Of a stretch of DNA of 64,000 bases, positions 1 to 60,721 are shown piece after piece. The position numbers and the translations under genes are program-made. The notes under the pieces were generated by a model. The model made no database searches. It had not been told where the DNA came from and was given only the letters and a program-made list of their open reading frames with translations. The stretch's first letter is position 1, and each line of letters opens with the position of its first letter. The stretch is from a virus. The stretch is taken from IMG/VR virus record IMGVR_UViG_3300043788_000114, positions 74,517 to 138,516 of that record; one strand, 5' to 3'.

Positions 1-37
1 ATCGCCTGTATTCATGCGGTCTCCGACGTGTAAGTAA

Positions 38-97
38 TTGACAGTACAGTGTCGAAATAAATCTCTTGACAAGAATTTCCCATTTTGCGGTTAGAAT
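38..97 (+). promoter_or_regulatory. Putative promoter region for the DUF3307-leader-tRNA transcript
   Basis: TTGACA at 38-43 and 66-71, TAGAAT at 92-97. The -35/-10 spacing is non-canonical. 38-52 is an exact 15-mer also found at two other promoter-like sites. Confidence 0.45.
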
Positions 98-113
98 GTT
101 CTGGGGGAGAAAA

Positions 114-455
114 TTGCTCATCATTCTGGCGCTTGTATGGATTCACTTTGTGTCGGATTTTCTGTTGCAGTCCGACAAGATGGCGATCAATAAATCGAAG
201 AGTTGGAAGTGGCTCGGCATCCATTGCGTAACGTACTCGACGCCGTTCCTGATCTTCGGCTGGCGCTTCGCGCTGGTCACCCTTGCTTTCCATTTCGTGA
301 CGGATGCGATCACGTCGCGTGGCACAGCGTACCTGTGGAAGCGGGAGATGCGACACTGGTTCTTCTCGCTCATCGGCTTCGATCAGGCGATCCACCTGAG
401 CACGCTGATTTTGACCTACCATTTTTTGCTTGCAAAGAATCTGGAATGGGTGTAG
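114..455 (+). CDS. DUF3307-like membrane protein
   Basis: HFVSDFLLQ...H...HFVTD...DQAIH motif with hydrophobic segments. GGGAGA RBS before TTG at 114. Confidence 0.75.
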   Translation: MLIILALVWIHFVSDFLLQSDKMAINKSKSWKWLGIHCVTYSTPFLIFGWRFALVTLAFHFVTDAITSRGTAYLWKREMRHWFFSLIGFDQAIHLSTLILTYHFLLAKNLEWV

Positions 456-486
456 GCTGATTTTCGTGCAGATAAGGACCAAATCC

Positions 487-552
487 GTGAACACGAGAAT
501 GACCGGGAAGCGGGTCATTTGGGGAATCGTGTCCGGGGGTTTGGGAACCTAA
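487..552 (+). CDS. Putative attenuator leader peptide MNTRMTGKRVIWGIVSGGLGT
   Basis: AAGGA at 474-478, GTG at 487, TAA at 550-552. The 3' end overlaps the antiterminator strand. Confidence 0.75.
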   Translation: MNTRMTGKRVIWGIVSGGLGT

Positions 553-586
553 TCTGCAACAAGATTCGGAACTCAAAGCACCCCGG
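533..586 (+). promoter_or_regulatory. Antiterminator hairpin
   Basis: CCGGGG(533-538) pairs with CCCCGG(581-586), TTTGGG with CTCAAA, CC with GG, AATCT with AGATT. It sequesters the 5' arm of the terminator. Confidence 0.75.
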
Positions 587-606
587 CTCAGGCCGGGGAT
601 TTTTTT
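581..606 (+). terminator. Intrinsic terminator directly upstream of the tRNA array
   Basis: CCCCGGC-TCAG-GCCGGGG stem-loop followed by A and 7 T. Confidence 0.9.
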
Positions 607-619
607 GGTCTTTGAAAAA

Positions 620-694
620 GCGGGTTTAAGCTAGTTGGCAAACTGCCTGCCTCCAAATCAGGACTCAGGGGTTCGATTCCTCTAACCCGCGCCA
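620..694 (+). tRNA. tRNA-Trp(CCA)
   Basis: Acceptor GCGGGTT/AACCCGC, loop CT-CCA-AA, TTCGATT T-loop, encoded CCA. Confidence 0.9.
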
Positions 695-695
695 T

Positions 696-771
696 CGCGA
701 CGTAGCTCAGGTGGTGGAGCGCCGATCTCATAAGTCGGAGGGCGAGGCTTCGAGTGCCTCCGTCGCGACCA
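696..771 (+). tRNA. tRNA-Met(CAT), elongator or Ile2 type
   Basis: CGCGACG/CGTCGCG, loop CT-CAT-AA, CCA end. Lacks initiator hallmarks (1:72 is paired, no GGG/CCC stem). Confidence 0.9.
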
Positions 772-777
772 AGTTTT

Positions 778-872
778 GCCGGAATCCTCGGGCGAGGCGC
801 TGGGATTTATAACCCCGGTTGTTGTCGGTAGATTGCCGATGTGCGAGGGATCATACCCCTCTTCCGGCCCCA
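778..872 (+). tRNA. Atypical tRNA with TAT anticodon (Ile by anticodon) and a long variable arm
   Basis: GCCGGAA/TTCCGGC, D hairpin CCTC-GGGC-GAGG, loop TT-TAT-AA, V-arm GTCGGTA-GAT-TGCCGAT, T-arm GAGGG-ATCATAC-CCCTC, CCA. Confidence 0.75.
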
Positions 873-874
873 GT

Positions 875-951
875 GAGCGCGTCGTATAGCGGCTGATTAT
901 ACCTGCCTCTTAAGCAGGCTGACGCTGGTTCAAATCCAGCCGCGCTCACCA
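875..951 (+). tRNA. tRNA-Lys(CTT)
   Basis: GAGCGCG/CGCGCTC, CCTGC-CT-CTT-AA-GCAGG, TTCAAAT, CCA. Confidence 0.9.
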
Positions 952-958
952 AAGTTTT

Positions 959-1044
959 GGGATCGTACTCGAATTGGATGCAGAGACCTGACTTTTAATC
1001 AGCGGGGAAACCCAATGGGGGTTCGAGTCCCCCCGGTCCCACCA
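959..1044 (+). tRNA. tRNA-Lys(TTT) with an extended variable arm
   Basis: GGGATCG/CGGTCCC, loop CT-TTT-AA, extra hairpin GGG-GAAA-CCC, TTCGAGT, CCA. Confidence 0.85.
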
Positions 1045-1048
1045 AGTT

Positions 1049-1125
1049 GCTCCCGTATCGGCGCTGTCTTCTAAACAGCAGGCCGTAGACGGATGACGCG
1101 GGTTCGACTCCTGCCGGGAGCGCCA
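1049..1125 (+). tRNA. tRNA-Arg(TCT), non-canonical (no D hairpin)
   Basis: GCTCCCG/CGGGAGC, 7-nt linker, GCTGT-CT-TCT-AA-ACAGC, 18-nt variable region, TTCGACT, CCA. Confidence 0.85.
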
Positions 1126-1131
1126 TGTTTT

Positions 1132-1209
1132 GCCGCTGTACCTCACCCGCCTCCTAAGCGGGATTCGAGTAACTGGATGATGCCGGTTCAACTCCGGCCA
1201 GCGGCACCA
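1132..1209 (+). tRNA. tRNA-Arg(CCT), non-canonical (no D hairpin)
   Basis: GCCGCTG/CAGCGGC, 7-nt linker, CCCGC-CT-CCT-AA-GCGGG, 19-nt variable region, TTCAACT, CCA. Confidence 0.85.
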
Positions 1210-1214
1210 GTTTT

Positions 1215-1291
1215 GCTGCCGTACCGGGTCGCCCTCCGAAGGCGAATACCGTAGATGGAGAAGGCAGGTTCGAGTCCTGTCGGCAGCGCCA
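1215..1291 (+). tRNA. tRNA-Arg(CCG), non-canonical (no D hairpin)
   Basis: GCTGCCG/CGGCAGC, 7-nt linker, TCGCC-CT-CCG-AA-GGCGA, 18-nt variable region, TTCGAGT, CCA. Confidence 0.85.
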
Positions 1292-1295
1292 GTTT

Positions 1296-1373
1296 GCAGG
1301 GTTAACTCAGTCCGCTCAGAGTGCCTCTCCTACAAAGAGGAAGCCGCAGGTTGAAATCCTGCACCCTGCACCA
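1296..1373 (+). tRNA. tRNA-Val(TAC)
   Basis: GCAGGGT/ACCCTGC, CCTCT-CC-TAC-AA-AGAGG, T-loop TTGAAAT, CCA. Confidence 0.85.
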
Positions 1374-1378
1374 AGTTT

Positions 1379-1453
1379 GCCGGTCAAGCACATGCGGATG
1401 TGTACTCCCTTGGTAAGGGAGAGGCAGAGAGTTCGATCCTCTCGACCGGCCCA
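1379..1453 (+). tRNA. tRNA-Thr(GGT)
   Basis: GCCGGTC/GACCGGC, CTCCC-TT-GGT-AA-GGGAG, TTCGATC. The 3' end is one nt short of NCCA. Confidence 0.85.
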
Positions 1454-1457
1454 GTTT

Positions 1458-1532
1458 GCCGATGTAGCTCAATGGGAGAGCATTCCCTTGATAAGGGAAA
1501 GGTCAGTGGATCGGTACCACTCATCGGCACCA
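1458..1532 (+). tRNA. tRNA-Ile(GAT)
   Basis: GCCGATG/CATCGGC, TTCCC-TT-GAT-AA-GGGAA, T-loop ATCGGTA, CCA. Confidence 0.85.
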
Positions 1533-1549
1533 AGTGTAGAATTGCAGGC

Positions 1550-1876
1550 ATGGCTCAATGGGAAGTGACTATACGCGCAAACATTCTCATCACAGACGAT
1601 GATGATGACGAAAACCAGTTTGCTGAGCAGTACACTTTCATCTGGTCCGCGCCCGACTTCATTTCGGCAGTGATGTCAGTCCAGCAGAAGCTCGACACTT
1701 TGAACGAGCGCACGAAGAAGAAGTGGGAAGAGACTGCTCGCAAAGCACGATTCATGGAAGAATACAACATCGTCGGGTTGATCGAAACCGATCACGTGCT
1801 ATTCGGCGACAAGTGGATAGATGAGTTCGTAGAACGAGGCGTAATAGATCGCAATTATGCCGAAGATGAAAGTTGA
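1550..1876 (+). CDS. Acidic hypothetical protein inside the tRNA array
   Basis: ORF from ATG 1550 (MAQWEVTIRAN...) fills the gap between tRNA-Ile and tRNA-Gly. Confidence 0.65.
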   Translation: MAQWEVTIRANILITDDDDDENQFAEQYTFIWSAPDFISAVMSVQQKLDTLNERTKKKWEETARKARFMEEYNIVGLIETDHVLFGDKWIDEFVERGVIDRNYAEDES

Positions 1877-1951
1877 GCGGGTGTCGTCCAACGGTAGGGC
1901 CACAGCCTTCCAAGCTGTTGACGAGGAGTTCGAATCTCCCCACCCGCTCCA
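1877..1951 (+). tRNA. tRNA-Gly(TCC)
   Basis: GCGGGTG/CACCCGC, ACAGC-CT-TCC-AA-GCTGT, U73, CCA. Confidence 0.9.
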
Positions 1952-2022
1952 TCACTCTCCGGAATAAAATCTGGAATAATTTGTGCTCGGAATTTCGATT
2001 TCTCCCGTGCTAAACTGCGCTC

Positions 2023-2661
2023 ATGTCTCTGAGCCTTGTCCCAATGCCGCTTCCGCCGCAGCCGTCTTTCCTGAATCCCAAGCGCAAACGACTCTGGGAA
2101 AAGTACAACGGCAAATGCCACTGGTGCGGATGCGAAACGCGGTTGGTGAATGACACAGCGCCGGATAAGGCAACCATCGATCACATCATCCCGCGCTACA
2201 AAGGCGGCACAAACGATCCCGCAAATCTGGTAAATTCCTGCAATCTTTGCAACAACCGGCGAAACTACGAAGATCATTTCGGACTTGCCGAAGGCACCTT
2301 GTTAGGGAAGTACAAGGGAGGCCAGAGCAACACGGAACGCAGGGCGGCGCGGCGCGCGCAACTGAAGCACATCGCTCTAACCGGTGACGAAAAACGGGCG
2401 ATCCTCGAAAGACTCGACGCTGGGAAGACACAACCACAACCACAGCCGCAAGCACCGATTCAGACGCGTCCGCCAGCGGCCCGCTACAGCACGGAGGAGG
2501 TCCTTCGCGAGCAGCGCGATCAGGCGCAGAAACGCATCGTCGAATTGCAGAAGGAATTGGATCGAGTGCAGGCCATCGCGGCGACGCAGGAAAAAGAATT
2601 GAAGTCGATCACTGTGGTGGGGCTTATCCGGAAGCGGATCGCCGAGTGGCTTTTGTCTTGA
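2023..2661 (+). CDS. HNH endonuclease with C-terminal coiled coil
   Basis: CHWC...TIDHIIPRYKGG...NLVNSCNLCN. Confidence 0.85.
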   Translation: MSLSLVPMPLPPQPSFLNPKRKRLWEKYNGKCHWCGCETRLVNDTAPDKATIDHIIPRYKGGTNDPANLVNSCNLCNNRRNYEDHFGLAEGTLLGKYKGGQSNTERRAARRAQLKHIALTGDEKRAILERLDAGKTQPQPQPQAPIQTRPPAARYSTEEVLREQRDQAQKRIVELQKELDRVQAIAATQEKELKSITVVGLIRKRIAEWLLS

Positions 2662-2686
2662 CACGCTGCTAGAAATGCCATACAAC
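2658..2686 (+). promoter_or_regulatory. Sigma70-type promoter with no downstream ORF
   Basis: TTGACA-17 nt-TACAAC. Confidence 0.6.
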
Positions 2687-2691
2687 CATGA

Positions 2692-2802
2692 GAGCGCGGT
2701 TTCCGCCGATCCCGCGCGGGGTGCGAGCACTCCCAAAAGGCTCAGCCCTCCCCCTTGCAGCGGCCTGTCGTTTTCTTCCGGTTGAGACGGGCCGTTGCTT
2801 CC
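2692..2802 (+). ncRNA. Putative small RNA ending in a 13-bp hairpin with a 16-nt loop
   Basis: Lies downstream of the promoter. Stem 2757-2769/2786-2798 has two G-U pairs that work only on the + strand. Confidence 0.45.
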
Positions 2803-3255: not shown

Positions 3256-3403
3256 GGAATTACGCTACCCCGAGTATGGAATTACGTCAAGACGCGGCGA
3301 TTCCTCGCCGCCGCTCGCCAGCGATGATCGAGTGGTGCTGAGTCGTGCTGAGAGTTTCCAGAGGCGGTACGTGGAGTGGTGCAGGTGGCGGGACTGGCGT
3401 AGC

Positions 3404-3622
3404 TTAGGCCGCTGCGGTCTCGTAGTCAAACTTCGAGCGGGCCATGAATCCTTCATCGAGAATCAGGGTGTTCAGGCGGTGCTTTGTATTGCGCGCGAGT
3501 TCCGGAAGATCGGGCCAGTGAACCTCGGCCTTTTCGCCACTGATCCCGACCACAACTCCCGGCTCCCCGGCGACAGCATTTGCCAGATACACCCTGTCCC
3601 CGACTTAGATGCTTGCACTCAT
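3404..3622 (-). pseudogene. Small SH3/KOW-like gene with an in-frame TAA at codon 6
   Basis: MSASI*VGDRVYLANAVAGEPGVV. Promoter TTGACA-17-CATACT (3658-3630) lies just upstream. Confidence 0.45.
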
Positions 3623-4917: not shown

Positions 4918-5141
4918 AGGAAATCCTCATCGATGCCTGCCGCTGAGAGAACTTTTTCCGGAACGAACAGGTGCCGGTGATTCTCCCGGACCCACATCCG
5001 GACAGTTGCGTTTCCTGCCGCGTCCTTCTCGCTGATTCTCAGTTCCGCCAGCAAAAGATCGAATTTCGATGGCTCCGGAGGCGGCTCGTGCGCGCCGCGC
5101 ATCATCCCCAGTTGCCAGCCGGTCAACTTGCTTCGTTTCAT
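4914..5141 (-). CDS. Hypothetical protein
   Basis: Translationally coupled ORF in the operon. Confidence 0.55.
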   Translation of the reverse strand: MKRSKLTGWQLGMMRGAHEPPPEPSKFDLLLAELRISEKDAAGNATVRMWVRENHRHLFVPEKVLSAAGIDEDFL

Positions 5142-8423: not shown

Positions 8424-9367
8424 GCGGCACCTCCGGGGAATTGGTGATATACCTTTCCGTAAAGCGTATCTGCGGAACTCCTACGGCCTATGCGAACCAG
8501 CGTGTGTACGTCGGAGTCCTCGTTTTCCAACGCTGGATCACCTAGCGGCCATTCGGTGCCGTCAGAGCGAAGGAACTTATGTGAGACGGAAGGATGCCTG
8601 CCAAATTCTTCATGGCCAGAATCGACCCATTCACCGTTCTGTTTGAAGAAAAACGGAACCTTCGCGTTCTCACATTGCTCGCGGATGTCATCGGCCCAGT
8701 GACTCAACATCGGCCTTGCGTTGGCTCCAGACTCTCCACCAACAATCACCCATTCAAGTTTTTCGTGACCCTCACTACTACCGCCCATGTGACCATGAGA
8801 CCCTGTAAGGACATCCCAAACAGAAACGAAGTTTCTTTCTGGATGTAGAATGCAACGCAAGTTAATTTCACTCAACAATGGCTCAGCGCTGATCCCATGG
8901 ACGACTGCTGGAATGGATAGCAGGATAGGAATACGATGGTTTGCCGCTTCTTGATTCTCCGTCGAAGTGAGTAACCATACATTCGGATACCCAGCACCCC
9001 AGTCTGGCGGCAAACTATCTGCTATTCTCTCAGGCCGCTTCGTGCAAAGCTGGTAGATGAACTGTGGAGTGCGGCGCATGATTTCCCAAGCATCCGCGCG
9101 CCAAGGGTCGGCCTCTTCGATAAAAAAGTCAGACCACGAATCAACAAAGATACGCTTGATGTGTCCGTATTTCGCTGGATTAGCCGCCCATTTCAGCGGC
9201 GCGTTGAAGGTCGTGTCAGAAGATCGCACTACTACGCTTGGATTCTGCCCATAGCGTGATTTCTCTGCAAACATATAACAATTTTTGCAGCCTTGGCTGA
9301 CTTTGTGGCAACCCTGCCAGCAGTTCCACGTCGCGTCGGTCCAGCTTATACCTGTTTTTTCGCCCAT
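8420..9367 (-). CDS. DUF5131 (phage Gp37/Gp68) protein
   Basis: ISWTDATWN..GC.KVSQGCKNCY, TKRPER, SAEPLL, WVIVGGESG, PFFFKQ. Confidence 0.9.
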   Translation of the reverse strand: MGEKTGISWTDATWNCWQGCHKVSQGCKNCYMFAEKSRYGQNPSVVVRSSDTTFNAPLKWAANPAKYGHIKRIFVDSWSDFFIEEADPWRADAWEIMRRTPQFIYQLCTKRPERIADSLPPDWGAGYPNVWLLTSTENQEAANHRIPILLSIPAVVHGISAEPLLSEINLRCILHPERNFVSVWDVLTGSHGHMGGSSEGHEKLEWVIVGGESGANARPMLSHWADDIREQCENAKVPFFFKQNGEWVDSGHEEFGRHPSVSHKFLRSDGTEWPLGDPALENEDSDVHTLVRIGRRSSADTLYGKVYHQFPGGAA

Positions 9368-9377
9368 TCGCTCCCCC

Positions 9378-10880
9378 TTAGAAAGGCGCTTCTTCGTCCG
9401 GCTCTTTCGTCTGACTGTAATTCATCTTTGCCTGCTCAGGTCCTTCCTTCTTCTTTTTCTTTCCGTGCCCATATTGCGGTTGCTGGATCGGAGCATTGTC
9501 CACCTGCTGGAGCGACAAGTCATCCTCGCCGCCAACGATCCGATAGTAAATGGGAGGGCAAGCTACCGAACTTTTTGTATGGAATTGTACCTTCCTGATC
9601 AGGTTCTTCGGCTCAACTTCAGGATTCTCGACCGTCAGGCCCATGCCCCACTCTTTCCACCCGTTGATACCTCCGCCGCGCGCCCGGTCGAAGATGGTGC
9701 CTTTTTCGCTTTTCGAAAGGTGGTGAACGATGCACACCTGACACTTGCCTTCACGCTCGATTCTTTTCGCTGCTGCAAGGACTCTGGATGTTTCCTGATT
9801 GTCGTTCTCGTTGCCTTCCCAAAGACTTCGGAAGACGTCGAAGAACACAAACTCAATCTGCCGTTCTTTGATGTTCTCAATGATGTCAACCAGATCGGGA
9901 TTGCTTTGCAGTGTCCAGCTTTCACGCTGAGAGCGGGTGTTGACGTAGAGATATTCTTCAAGGTCGATCATGCCGATGAACTCTTTAACGCCGATGTCGG
10001 CACCGTTGAGCATTCTCTTCAATCTGCTTTGGGAGAGACCCGGAGCGTCTTCTCTGGCGACTAACCCGACTTTCACGCGCTTGGGAATGCGATGCTGAAA
10101 CCACGCTACCCCGGAGACCAAGTGCAAAGCCAGATCGAAAATGAGAACGGACTTTGAAGTGCCTGAGTCGCCAAGGATGAGGCCGTTGCCTTCTTTCTGA
10201 ATAATCCCGTCGACCGTCCATTCGATCTGCTCTGGCGCGGAGGCGATGAATGTGCGGGCTCCGATGAAGAACGGCTCTGGATTGCGAATGAGAGCGCGGC
10301 TCGACTCGCGCAGAGACTCAGTTTCTCGCTCAAGAGACTCAAGTGTGCTGATAGCATCTTCACTCTGGTCCGCCGCTCGGGCGATGGTGGCCGAGCAGAT
10401 GCCCATAAGACGGCGTGCAATGCTTTTATCCTTGCAAATCCGGATGTAGGCGTCGATGACTGGGCGGCGGGGAAGACCCTCGGTGAGTGAAGCCAGATAG
10501 GCAACACCGCCGATAGACTCCACTTCCTTGAATTTCGACAACCGCGCGCACAGCGTCACGATGTCGATGGTTTGACCATCTTCTTCAAGTTCGGCCATGC
10601 GCAGGTAAATGCGGCGATGAGAGTCGAGGCTGAAGTCATCCGGCGTGAGAGTCAGAGCGGTTTCTTTAATTGCGCGCTGATCGAGCAGGATGGCCCCGAG
10701 GATCGTCTTCTCCGCGTCGATGTTTGCGGGGAGACCAGCTTCGAGAGTTAAATCAGGAACCGGCTTGCGCGCCTCTCGCTGACGCTCAGGCGGAGCATTG
10801 TAGCTGGGCGCGGGCGCTTCTTCCTGCGGCGGCTCAGGAGTTTTATCGTCTGCGAAGAAATCTGTTGCGTCGACCGTCAT
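9378..10880 (-). CDS. Replicative helicase: DnaB N-terminal domain plus RepA/AAA_25-type ATPase
   Basis: P.NIDAEKTILGAIL...DDF...HRRIY, GGVAYLASL; Walker A GDSGTSKS; VHHLSK...RARG. Confidence 0.85.
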   Translation of the reverse strand: MTVDATDFFADDKTPEPPQEEAPAPSYNAPPERQREARKPVPDLTLEAGLPANIDAEKTILGAILLDQRAIKETALTLTPDDFSLDSHRRIYLRMAELEEDGQTIDIVTLCARLSKFKEVESIGGVAYLASLTEGLPRRPVIDAYIRICKDKSIARRLMGICSATIARAADQSEDAISTLESLERETESLRESSRALIRNPEPFFIGARTFIASAPEQIEWTVDGIIQKEGNGLILGDSGTSKSVLIFDLALHLVSGVAWFQHRIPKRVKVGLVAREDAPGLSQSRLKRMLNGADIGVKEFIGMIDLEEYLYVNTRSQRESWTLQSNPDLVDIIENIKERQIEFVFFDVFRSLWEGNENDNQETSRVLAAAKRIEREGKCQVCIVHHLSKSEKGTIFDRARGGGINGWKEWGMGLTVENPEVEPKNLIRKVQFHTKSSVACPPIYYRIVGGEDDLSLQQVDNAPIQQPQYGHGKKKKKEGPEQAKMNYSQTKEPDEEAPF

Positions 10881-60454: not shown

Positions 60455-60721
60455 ATGGACAACGTGACGTACCAGCAGCCTAATCTTCGGGCATCGATGC
60501 GAGACATCGTGCGGACGTGCTTGGATGACGGCATGAAGCTGAGCGAGGCTAAGCAAATCTTCATGAAAGTCTGGATGGAAGAAAGCTTGGCGAACAGCAA
60601 CAACAACCAGATAGTCGTGGCCTCGCGCGAGAATATGCACCGGAACACCGTCGCCCGCCTACTCAAAAAGGTTGGAGTCGTTCCCGGAAAATTCAAGCAC
60701 GCGAAACCAAGACATGTTTGA
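60455..60721 (+). CDS. Fis-family HTH protein
   Basis: L.EA...F....EESL....NNQ...A....MHRNTVARLL. Confidence 0.75.
   Translation: MDNVTYQQPNLRASMRDIVRTCLDDGMKLSEAKQIFMKVWMEESLANSNNNQIVVASRENMHRNTVARLLKKVGVVPGKFKHAKPRHV

What the first reader, a model, noticed from the sequence alone, without database searches (positions are those of the whole stretch)
474..1951. Ribosome-stalling attenuator whose leader peptide samples the codons of the downstream tRNA array (candidate tRNA-depletion sensor)
Seen in sequence: RBS AAGGA (474-478), a 21-codon ORF (487-552, MNTRMTGKRVIWGIVSGGLGT), a roughly 20-bp hairpin (533-586) and an intrinsic terminator (581-606) 13 nt before the first tRNA. The two hairpins share 581-586, so they are mutually exclusive, and the leader stop codon lies inside the antiterminator. 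The 12 tRNAs cover exactly W, M, I, K, R, V, T and G. Leader residues 3-15 use only those eight amino acids and include all eight. Codons 4-15 (AGA ATG ACC GGG AAG CGG GTC ATT TGG GGA ATC GTG) are read by array anticodons TCT, CAT, GGT, TCC, CTT, CCG, TAC, GAT and CCA; GTC would need extended wobble. Two of the three other residues (S, L) lie in the pairing-constrained antiterminator strand. Established: this is the logic of trp/his-type attenuators, and host anticodon nucleases (PrrC, PARIS AriB, VapC toxins) destroy tRNAs that phage tRNAs can replace. Inference: unimpeded translation masks the antiterminator and terminates transcription, while loss of any sampled tRNA stalls the ribosome and switches on the replacement tRNAs. 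That would be a multi-input, on-demand counter-defence switch. I know of no described example for a phage tRNA array but could not search the literature.
Basis: partly seen in the sequence, partly recalled or inferred. Interest (0 to 1): 0.96.

Follow-up and report, generated by a model that had tools for sequence, protein, structure and literature searches.

The report
Codon-matched attenuator gating phage tRNA genes
A soil or peat phage places each block of its tRNA genes behind a tiny test gene written in the codons those tRNAs read, followed by a switchable transcription stop, so it probably makes a tRNA block only when ribosomes read those codons slowly.

Summary
The leader ORF most likely starts at GTG 466, which lies 7 nt after a predicted -10 box and so gives a leaderless mRNA. 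It does not start at GTG 487 behind an "RBS".

The 28-codon leader (466-552) has a codon for 12 of 12 downstream tRNAs, and 19 of its 27 codons are cognate. It is the only one of 2,804 short ORFs in the 138.5-kb genome that reaches both values.

The same genome carries two more such cassettes upstream of the window. Across 22 leader/array pairs in 11 related phages, leaders sample 207 of 218 of their own tRNAs. The match is frame-specific and array-specific.

Folding gives the classical 1:2 / 2:3 / 3:4 attenuator layout.

Best reading (0.8): a multivalent leader-peptide attenuator that raises tRNA-array transcription when array-cognate codons are decoded slowly. A counter-defence trigger is plausible but untested. 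There is no expression data.

Nine literature searches found no description of this control for tRNA genes. This scan has reported the same design before in other phage genomes.

The parts
430..458 (+). Predicted promoter: -35 TTGCAA (430-435), 17 nt spacer, -10 TAGGCT (453-458). It overlaps the 3' end of the DUF3307 gene (66-455).
   Evidence: Pattern TTGNNN-16..18-TANNNT-5..8-start found. It occurs before 8 of 27 leaders, against 18 of 13,373 start-like triplets in the genome. L007 has the same TTGCAG-17-TAGGCT. The consensus scan instead picked TTGACC-18-AAGAAT at 411-440. No transcription start data exist.
466..552 (+). Leader ORF, 28 codons (VQIRTKSVNTRMTGKRVIWGIVSGGLGT) plus TAA, probably leaderless.
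   Evidence: 19/27 codons are cognate to the array and 12/12 tRNAs are sampled, against 4/27 for each of the other two arrays. It ranks 1 of 2,804 ORFs. Homologous leaders appear.
467..489 (+). Region 1: 5' strand of the anti-antiterminator, lying in leader codons 1-8.
   Evidence: In the MFE of 466-607 it pairs with 534-558. The same pairing appears.
533..586 (+). Antiterminator hairpin (regions 2 and 3), 20 pairs. Its 5' strand (533-558) covers the last leader codons, the stop codon and 6 nt beyond. Its 3' end (581-586) is the terminator's 5' arm.
   Evidence: It is the MFE when the 5' part is left out. In the footprint model the terminator arm is 85-97% paired upstream for all but one stall (74%) at codons 2-18, and 21-57% later.
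581..606 (+). Intrinsic terminator: 7-bp G-C stem (581-587 with 592-598), loop TCAG, then A and seven T.
   Evidence: -14.4 kcal/mol. L005 has the same stem, L007 a variant of it, and L006 and L037 different stems at the same place.
620..1532 (+). Eleven tRNA genes: Trp-CCA 620-694, Met-CAT 696-771, Ile-TAT 778-872, Lys-CTT 875-951, Lys-TTT 959-1044, Arg-TCT 1049-1125, Arg-CCT 1132-1209, Arg-CCG 1215-1291, Val-TAC 1296-1373, Thr-GGT 1379-1452, Ile-GAT 1458-1532.
   Evidence: ARAGORN and Rfam. Ile-TAT and the three Arg genes were curated by hand.
1550..1876 (+). 108-aa ORF inside the array, with no family match.
   Evidence: no Pfam hit. No relative was found in IMG/VR.
1877..1951 (+). tRNA-Gly-TCC, the twelfth and last tRNA of the unit.
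1958..1975 (+). Terminator-like hairpin that may end the array transcript.
   Evidence: 6 pairs, tail ATAATTTGTG. It is weak and was not examined further.

Best explanation
This is a ribosome-mediated (leader-peptide) transcription attenuator that controls a 12-gene tRNA array. It is one of three such cassettes in this phage.

**Proposed mechanism**
- Transcription starts about 7 nt after TAGGCT, so the RNA begins with the leader's GTG.
- A ribosome translates the 28-codon leader while RNA polymerase moves on.
- If decoding is smooth, the ribosome reaches the stop codon and covers region 2 (533-558). The terminator (581-606) then forms and the array is not transcribed.
- If the ribosome stalls at one of the early or middle codons, region 2 stays free. 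This happens when the charged tRNA for that codon, one of the species the array encodes, is scarce. Region 2 then pairs with the terminator's 5' arm and polymerase reads into the tRNA genes.
- Without any translation, region 1 (467-489) holds region 2 and the terminator forms.

**Net effect:** negative feedback. The phage makes this tRNA block on demand.

**Shown here:** the sequence elements, their conservation, the codon match and the alternative folds.

**Inferred:** translation of the leader, the transcription start, termination and read-through, and what depletes the tRNAs in nature.
For: **(1) Codon match in this genome**
- The leaders of the three arrays decode 14/21, 16/27 and 19/27 codons with their own array.
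- Against the other arrays the three leaders score 2-7 cognate codons.
- They sample 9/9, 12/12 and 12/12 of their own tRNAs.
- By the wider definition set beforehand, the first array scores 9/13. Its four unsampled tRNAs lie behind a separate strong promoter.

**(2) Null test**
- Among 2,804 short ORFs, both values are reached only by the leader itself for arrays 2 and 3.
- For array 1 they are reached by the leader plus one other ORF.

**(3) Frame control over 20 leaders**
- Frame 0: 249/480 codons cognate and 183/205 tRNAs sampled.
- Frame +1: 121/460 and 79/205.
- Frame +2: 121/460 and 91/205.

**(4) Conservation**
- 22 leader/unit pairs in 11 phages (Ro60 identity 89% down to 48%) give 290/540 cognate codons and 207/218 tRNAs sampled.
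- The peptides themselves diverge strongly.

**(5) Co-variation**
- Cys, Asp, Glu and Trp codons are present in 15/15 leaders whose unit encodes that tRNA, and in 15/73 others.
- In L048 the Glu tRNAs sit in array 3. Of the five array-3 leaders tabulated, only its leader has a Glu codon.

**(6) Structure**
- The MFE without a ribosome is hairpin 1:2 plus the terminator.
- With the transcript cut at the terminator loop and a ribosome footprint applied, the terminator arm is mostly sequestered for early and middle stalls. It is much less so near the stop, in all 12 leaders modelled.
- Cognate codons are enriched in that window: 136/213 against 25/70, Fisher p = 5e-5. The leaders are homologous, so this is not a clean probability.
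- Sequestration exceeds the shuffle mean in 15/15 leaders, and at most 10 of 200 shuffles reach it in 8/15.

**(7) Terminator variation**
- The terminator stem differs between relatives (CCCCGGC, CTCTCGGC, GACCCTCC, ACCATCGC).
- It always overlaps the antiterminator's 3' strand (read directly).

**(8) Promoter**
- A promoter-like TTGNNN-17/18-TANNNT ends 6-7 nt before the start codon in 8 of 27 leaders, against 0.13% background.
Against: - **No expression data.** No RNA run is listed for this sequence.
- **Equilibrium folding favours termination.** With the whole terminator present, the terminator stays at 0.9 or above at nearly all stall positions in 4 of the 9 leaders that routine handled, including this one. 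Read-through therefore needs the kinetic, co-transcriptional argument used for classical attenuators.
- **Moderate shuffle support for the antiterminator.** In 7 of 15 leaders, more than 10 of 200 shuffles pair as well.
- **Single codons.** Most tRNAs are sampled by one codon only, whereas classical leaders use runs of one codon.
- **Late cognate codons.** In this window the last cognate codons (from about codon 19) lie where a stalled ribosome would already mask region 2.
- **Discordances.**
  - The L007 and L048 array-3 leaders have Thr ACY codons but no Thr-GGT gene in that array.
  - The L005 array-2 leader keeps CCA and ACA although Pro-TGG and Thr-TGT were not found.
  - The L005 array-1 leader is only 6-7/31 cognate.
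  - The L048-type array-1 leaders are 9-10/27 cognate.
  - The L070 array-2 leader is 3/23 cognate (its array is cut by the contig end).
- **Missing elements in relatives.** L042 has the terminator but no recognisable leader. L018 has the leader-like ORF but no clear terminator.
- **Hand-curated tRNAs.** Four of the 12 tRNAs were curated by hand, and three of them lack a normal D arm.
Confidence: 0.8

Rival explanations
1. General translation gauge. The leader is translated and the switch works, but it reports overall ribosome or elongation capacity (for example host shut-off). It does not report the supply of the specific tRNAs of the array.
For: The layout would respond to any slowing of elongation. 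Each tRNA is mostly sampled by a single codon. Some leader codons have no tRNA in the array.
Against: A general gauge needs no particular codons. Yet each leader matches its own array and not the other two. Codon content also follows tRNAs that moved between arrays.
Confidence: 0.08
2. Ordinary terminator. The hairpin at 581-606 simply ends the upstream DUF3307 transcript or insulates the array. The short ORF and its codon match are chance.
For: The terminator follows a protein gene. Short ORFs are plentiful (2,804 in the genome).
Against: The leader ranks 1 of 2,804. The same cassette occurs where the upstream gene is Ro60 instead (L005, L007) and before the other two arrays. The match is frame-specific. 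Several cassettes have a promoter-like site between the upstream gene and the terminator.
Confidence: 0.05
3. RNA-only switch. Uncharged or intact tRNAs bind the leader RNA directly through codon-anticodon pairing, in the manner of a T-box, without translation.
For: Triplets complementary to the array's anticodons are present. The terminator/antiterminator pair resembles the expression platform of a T-box.
Against: No T-box or other cis-regulatory family is matched at E <= 1 (window 1-2700) or E <= 0.1 (16.6 kb). The cognate triplets are all in one open frame that begins with a start codon and ends at a stop placed at region 2. A T-box uses one specifier, not 9-12.
Confidence: 0.04
4. The short ORFs encode functional small peptides, and their composition is selected for the peptide's own activity.
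For: Local peptide motifs are shared among close relatives (KRVIWG, QPQGN, LSSLS).
Against: Order and sequence drift while composition is kept. Three unrelated compositions each mirror the adjacent array. No signal or membrane features were examined, and none are needed to explain the data.
Confidence: 0.03

Closest known systems
Multivalent leader-peptide attenuators of enterobacterial amino-acid operons (thr leader: Thr and Ile; ilvGMEDA leader: Ile, Leu, Val; also trpL, hisL, leuL, pheL). Recalled from textbooks; pheL seen in the abstract of PMC3082878.
   Same: A short translated leader rich in regulatory codons. RNA regions 1:2, 2:3 and 3:4 in mutually exclusive pairs. An intrinsic terminator just before the regulated genes. 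A stop codon placed so that a finishing ribosome masks region 2. Several kinds of codon read by one leader.
   Different: The regulated genes are tRNAs, not biosynthetic enzymes, so the loop senses tRNA supply and restores it directly. 9-12 tRNA species are sampled, mostly once each. The leader is probably leaderless. The system is phage-borne and comes in three cassettes that divide the code. No Rfam leader family matches.
Leaderless polycysteine short ORFs acting as cysteine-responsive attenuators in mycobacteria (bioRxiv 10.1101/834739; title and start of abstract seen).
   Same: A leaderless short ORF at the 5' end of an operon whose codon content sets the expression of downstream genes.
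   Different: One amino acid, cellular operons, protein-coding targets. I did not read their mechanism beyond the abstract.
T-box riboswitches (recalled).
   Same: tRNA status decides between a terminator and an antiterminator upstream of translation-related genes.
   Different: T-boxes bind one uncharged tRNA directly and need no ribosome. No T-box match here.
The inducible trn tRNA array of Anabaena sp. PCC 7120 (PMC8421152, abstract and passages; PMC10272220, abstract).
   Same: A long accessory tRNA array that is silent by default and switched on when translation is impaired.
   Different: It is controlled by the repressor TrcR. The words attenuat-, leader peptide and terminator do not occur in PMC8421152. 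It is cellular, not phage-borne.
Phage tRNAs as counter-measures to tRNA-cleaving defences (PMC10264068, PMC11464382, PMC11555353; abstracts seen).
   Same: Phage-encoded tRNAs replace host tRNAs that defence nucleases destroy. This would be a natural trigger for the switch.
   Different: Those papers concern the tRNAs themselves. PMC10264068 does not contain the words attenuat-, terminator, leader or promoter.

Membership tests
Leader-peptide (ribosome-mediated) transcription attenuator | Short ORF with a start signal at the 5' end of the transcript | tested here: met
   GTG 466 lies 7 nt after a -10-like TAGGCT. The ORF is 28 codons. Homologous ATG starts occur in relatives. Translation itself was not observed.
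Leader-peptide (ribosome-mediated) transcription attenuator | Leader enriched in codons tied to the regulated genes | tested here: met
   19/27 codons and 12/12 tRNAs; rank 1 of 2,804 ORFs. The match is frame-specific and array-specific.
Leader-peptide (ribosome-mediated) transcription attenuator | Intrinsic terminator between the leader and the regulated genes | tested here: met
   Positions 581-606: 7 G-C pairs plus a T tract, 13 nt before the first tRNA.
Leader-peptide (ribosome-mediated) transcription attenuator | Antiterminator that shares bases with the terminator, and an upstream partner (1:2) that holds it when nothing is translated | tested here: met
   Hairpin 533-586. Pairing of 467-489 with 534-558 plus the terminator in the MFE. 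At equilibrium with the full terminator present, the terminator wins, so the choice must be kinetic.
Leader-peptide (ribosome-mediated) transcription attenuator | Geometry: a ribosome at the stop codon masks region 2, while a ribosome stalled at regulatory codons leaves it free | tested here: met
   Footprint model (A site -15 to +12). The arm is 85-97% sequestered for all but one stall (74%) at codons 2-18, and 21-57% later. The same step is seen in 12 of 12 leaders. The model is crude.
Leader-peptide (ribosome-mediated) transcription attenuator | Read-through depends on leader translation and on supply of the cognate charged tRNA | not testable with these tools
   No RNA holder is listed. 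The host is unknown.
Rfam amino-acid operon leader families and T-box | Match to a curated covariance model | tested here: not met
   Only tRNA, tmRNA and Y-RNA-like matches were found in window 1-2700 at E <= 1 and in 16.6 kb at E <= 0.1.

The most novel reading that the evidence does not exclude
The phage divides the genetic code into three tRNA modules, each separately switched. Each module is wired to a leader that reports loss of any of its own tRNA species. When a host anticodon nuclease or other tRNA-depleting defence strikes, ribosomes stall on the matching leader. Only the needed replacement tRNAs, some with unusual anticodon loops or arms, are then made. This would be a multi-input, on-demand counter-defence circuit conserved across a family of soil and peat phages.
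Probability: 0.35. Interest if true: 0.95.

Novelty: new variant of a known kind. Interest (0 to 1): 0.85.

Why it matters
**tRNA gene regulation.** tRNA genes are usually thought to be regulated at promoters or by global growth-rate control. A leader-peptide attenuator in front of tRNA genes closes a direct loop: slow decoding of a codon switches on the gene for the tRNA that reads it.

**Phage biology.**
- It would explain how large phages dose 30-40 tRNAs without a protein regulator.
- It would explain why tRNAs are grouped by amino acid into blocks.
- It offers a testable link between phage tRNA arrays and host tRNA-cleaving defences.

**Experimental use.** The cassettes are about 140 nt long and self-contained, so the idea can be tested with reporters or in a defined translation system. 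They could also serve as natural sensors for individual tRNA pools.

Tried and rejected
**Probes that found nothing useful**
- DUF3307 protein in IMG/VR: 2 distant loci with no array next to it.
- The 108-aa ORF in IMG/VR: 0 relatives.
- The exact terminator string: 0 matches.
- blastn of window 1-2700 against GenBank phages: only single-tRNA hits in 5 records.
- tblastn with Ro60 against GenBank phages: 72 records, all below 60% identity, so no cultured close relative.

**Expression**
- No RNA holder listed.

**Modelling**
- The equilibrium model with the whole terminator mostly predicts termination whatever the stall position. I replaced it with truncated-transcript models. This result counts against a purely thermodynamic switch.

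**tRNA finders**
- My first strict tRNA-like finder found only one extra gene.
- A looser one gave many false candidates. I sorted these by eye.

**Errors corrected**
- One search failed on wrong ORF coordinates. I corrected them.
- One search used four wrong start coordinates and crashed. Ignore it; one search replaces it.
- The L044 leader start was wrong. I corrected it.

**Elements sought and not found**
- A separate promoter between 606 and 620: none. The conserved CTTTGAnAA there has no -10 partner at 16-18 nt (read directly).
- T-box or known leader families: none.
- L042 array 3: terminator but no recognisable leader.
- L044 array 1: an HNH gene abuts the array and no leader lies within the locus.

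**Which loci were examined**
- Of 25 IMG/VR loci, 3 had the three-array synteny and were used in full.
- L013, L018 and L021 were only skimmed.
- L010 was not examined.
- Of 80 metagenome loci, 33 had at least one tRNA. I examined 10.
- I skipped three duplicates of earlier contigs (L040, L045, L059). I also skipped the loci with only one or two tRNAs.

**Not run**
- Structure and complex prediction were not relevant.
Full report
**Where the window lies.** The window is the last 64 kb of a 138,516-bp IMG/VR virus record that CheckV calls complete. Its genes are those of a large phage: helicases, primase, topoisomerase, methyltransferases and several HNH endonucleases. The finding sits just after a DUF3307 gene (66-455).

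**The observation.**
- The terminator (stem 581-598, seven G-C pairs, loop TCAG, then A plus seven T) is the best terminator-like site in the first 2.7 kb.
- The 20-pair hairpin 533-586 is the minimum-free-energy fold when folding starts at 487. It shares 581-586 with the terminator.
- When upstream RNA is included, the best fold pairs 467-489 with 534-558 and leaves the terminator intact. The RNA therefore has the three competing pairings of a classical attenuator.
- ARAGORN reports 8 tRNAs, and Rfam reports 7 plus one weak hit.
- Four further genes were curated by hand: Ile-TAT and three tRNA-Arg with acceptor, anticodon and T arms but no normal D arm.

**Correction of the start.**
- The frame of the 21-codon ORF is open from GTG 466.
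- That GTG lies 7 nt after TAGGCT (453-458), which lies 17 nt after TTGCAA (430-435).
- The resulting peptide, VQIRTKSVNTRMTGKRVIWGIVSGGLGT, aligns from its first residues with the leaders of relatives. Examples are MQTRTTKHGITRMTKRVIWGIVF in L037 and MQTSTKRGITRMTTKRVIWGVV in L006.
- The extra codons include ATA, AGG and AAA. These are the cognate codons of the tRNAs the shorter ORF missed outright (Ile-TAT, Arg-CCT) or reached only by wobble (Lys-TTT).
- With this start, 19 of 27 codons are cognate and 12 of 12 tRNAs are sampled.
- Of 2,804 ORFs of 18-35 codons in the whole genome (all starts, six frames), no other reaches these values.
- The "RBS" AAGGA is therefore probably just codons 3-5.

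**Two more cassettes in the same genome.**
- Array 1 (genome 60625 onward; Leu x3, Cys, Ser x4, Tyr) is preceded by TTGACA, a GTG-started leader and a terminator. The leader is VKTLCLSSLSSYSSLLSGSGGS (60492-60560) and the terminator lies at 60590-60611.
- Array 2 (Asn, Gln x2, Gly, Thr x2, His, Ala, Phe, Pro x2, Arg) is preceded by TTGACA-17-TACCGT-7-GTG, a leader and a terminator. The leader is VMTRFHSDFPATAATQPQGNRSPEMGSQ (68594-68680) and the terminator lies at 68714-68747. An HNH gene is inserted before the first tRNA.
- The 3 x 3 table of leaders against arrays is strongly diagonal. Own-array scores are 14/21, 16/27 and 19/27, against 2-7 cognate codons elsewhere.
- The four tRNAs of array 1 that its leader does not sample (CAT, Asp, Glu x2) lie behind the best promoter match in the 16.6-kb region, TTGACA-17-GATAAT. 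The unit under the attenuator is then 9 tRNAs, all sampled. By the definition I had fixed beforehand the figure is 9/13.

**Relatives.**
- The neighbouring Ro60 (TROVE) protein retrieved 25 IMG/VR loci and 80 metagenome loci.
- Three IMG/VR phages (Ro60 identity 80, 81 and 69%) have the same three arrays. All nine of their array starts carry a leader ORF, an antiterminator and a terminator.
- A more distant clade (L048, L065, L057, L070, L073; 66-52%) has the arrays on the other strand relative to Ro60. It still has a leader and terminator before each block.
- L037, L038, L044 and L049 add five more cassettes.
- Over 22 leader/unit pairs, 290 of 540 codons are cognate and 207 of 218 tRNAs are sampled.
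- Array-2 leaders sample every tRNA in 7 of 8 cases, and 11 of 12 in the eighth.
- The peptides themselves are barely alignable between the two clades, for example MKHLTTIRNFTQAITIAVEPRQGSPM against the array-2 leader above. What is conserved is codon content, not peptide sequence.

**Controls.**
- Reading the same leader nucleotides in the other two frames halves both measures. Frame 0 gives 249/480 and 183/205. Frame +1 gives 121/460 and 79/205. Frame +2 gives 121/460 and 91/205.
- This argues for decoding by ribosomes rather than base composition or direct RNA-RNA pairing.

**Co-variation.**
- For Cys, Asp, Glu and Trp, the leader has the codon in 15 of 15 units that encode the tRNA and in 15 of 73 that do not.
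- L005 and the L048 clade lack tRNA-Cys in array 1 and lack Cys codons in that leader.
- In L048 the two tRNA-Glu genes sit in array 3, and of the five array-3 leaders tabulated only its leader has GAA.
- Asp codons appear in array-1 leaders only where tRNA-Asp directly follows.
- There are discordant cases too. Thr ACY codons persist in the array-3 leaders of L007 and L048 without a Thr-GGT gene there. L005's array-2 leader keeps CCA and ACA without the matching genes. L005's array-1 leader is long and only 6-7/31 cognate.

**Structure and mechanism.**
- Without a ribosome, 11 of the 12 leaders of the four closest phages fold as 1:2 plus terminator. In the twelfth (L007 array 1) the MFE pairs the terminator arm upstream instead.
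- At equilibrium with the whole terminator present, the terminator usually wins. This also holds, as I recall, for the trp attenuator. The decision must therefore be made while the terminator's 3' arm is still unmade.
- I modelled this with the transcript cut at the terminator loop, a footprint from 15 nt before to 12 nt after the first A-site base, and only the RNA 3' of the ribosome allowed to fold.
- In that model the terminator's 5' arm is mostly paired upstream for stalls at early and middle codons. It is much less so near the stop codon, in 12 of 12 leaders and in the corrected leader of this window.
- The step coincides with the end of the run of cognate codons: 136/213 cognate in the window against 25/70 in the tail.
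- Composition-preserving shuffles of the intervening RNA pair less well on average in 15 of 15 leaders. They are clearly worse in only 8.
- Terminator stems differ among relatives yet always overlap the antiterminator's 3' strand.

**What it most likely does.** The cassette makes array transcription depend on how fast ribosomes read codons served by that array. This gives negative feedback on tRNA supply.
- It cannot be told from sequence whether the usual cause of slow decoding is simple demand during infection, loss of host tRNAs after shut-off, or cleavage by host anticodon nucleases.
- Published work shows that phage tRNAs can rescue infection from such nucleases (abstracts of PMC10264068, PMC11464382 and PMC11555353). 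That makes the defence reading reasonable but not shown.

**Comparison with what is known.**
- In mechanism this is a multivalent leader-peptide attenuator of the thr or ilvGMEDA kind (recalled).
- Its leaderless start has a precedent in mycobacterial polycysteine short ORFs (10.1101/834739, abstract).
- It differs in its target: tRNA genes.
- It differs in breadth: 9-12 tRNA species per leader.
- It differs in being phage-borne, in three modules that partition the code.
- The Anabaena trn array is the nearest published inducible tRNA array, but it is controlled by the repressor TrcR (PMC8421152 passages; PMC10272220 abstract).
- Nine full-text searches found no account of leader-peptide attenuation of tRNA genes. 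The library lacks most subscription journals, so this is not proof of absence.
- Notes of this same scan report the same design in other phage genomes. I used them only as leads.

**Verdict.**
- Corrected: the start codon and the sensing window.
- Left open: the counter-defence role.
- Confidence in the attenuator reading is 0.8.
- Everything about expression remains inference.

Noticed in passing
window 1049-1291: Three tRNA-Arg genes (TCT, CCT, CCG) have good acceptor, anticodon and T arms plus CCA. They have only about 7 nt where the D arm should be, and an 18-19 nt variable region. The orthologues in L005 are canonical (Rfam 60-65 bits). L006 (TCT) and L007 (CCG) each have one such odd copy.
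   Followed up: partly
window 778-872: A 95-nt tRNA-like gene with anticodon TAT (Ile, AUA). It has a D arm, an extra hairpin in the variable region and a mismatch closing the anticodon stem. ARAGORN and Rfam both miss it. L006 has a canonical Ile-TAT at the same place.
   Followed up: partly
L004:10738-10812; L006:4493-4568 and 4961-5048; L070 (reverse strand) 3345-3426: Several phage tRNAs carry C instead of the universal U at position 33 of the anticodon loop: Thr-TGT, Leu-CAA, Ser-TGA and Tyr-GTA. Anticodon-loop changes in phage tRNAs have been proposed to evade host nucleases (PMC10264068, abstract).
   Followed up: no
window 609-618 and the same place in L005, L006, L007, L037, L042: A conserved CTTTGA(A/C/G)AA motif lies between the terminator's T tract and tRNA-Trp in six phages. 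It looks like a -35 box, but no -10 follows at 16-18 nt. Its purpose is unknown; it may be a processing or pause signal.
   Followed up: partly
L004:2331-2359 (genome 62331-62359): The strongest sigma-70-like promoter of the 16.6-kb region (TTGACA-17-GATAAT) sits directly before a CAT tRNA. A permuted tmRNA and tRNA-Asp, Glu and Glu follow. This block has no leader or terminator cassette.
   Followed up: partly
window 2023-2661; L004:1562-2404, 8809-9420, 10168-10716: HNH endonuclease genes are inserted inside or beside the tRNA arrays, once between a leader/terminator and its array. L004:8809-9420 had no Pfam hit, so its HNH call rests on my reading of its motifs. L005, L037 and L044 carry insertions at other positions. 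This suggests mobile elements that target tRNA arrays.
   Followed up: no
L004:11600-13645 (genome 71600-73645): A Ro60 (TROVE plus vWA) gene is preceded by several Y-RNA-like modules (sub-threshold Rfam YrlA hits) between arrays 2 and 3. The same arrangement occurs in L005-L007.
   Followed up: no
L004:5975-6931: An IS1595-family transposase gene (DDE_Tnp_IS1595 plus zinc ribbon) lies in the phage genome between arrays 1 and 2.
   Followed up: no
L018:5075-5160; L013:7710-7784: More distant phages (Ro60 about 48-50% identical) keep a Leu/Ser/(Cys)/Tyr-rich short ORF directly before a Leu/Ser/Tyr(/Cys) tRNA block. In L018 no clear terminator follows, so control there may work differently.
   Followed up: partly
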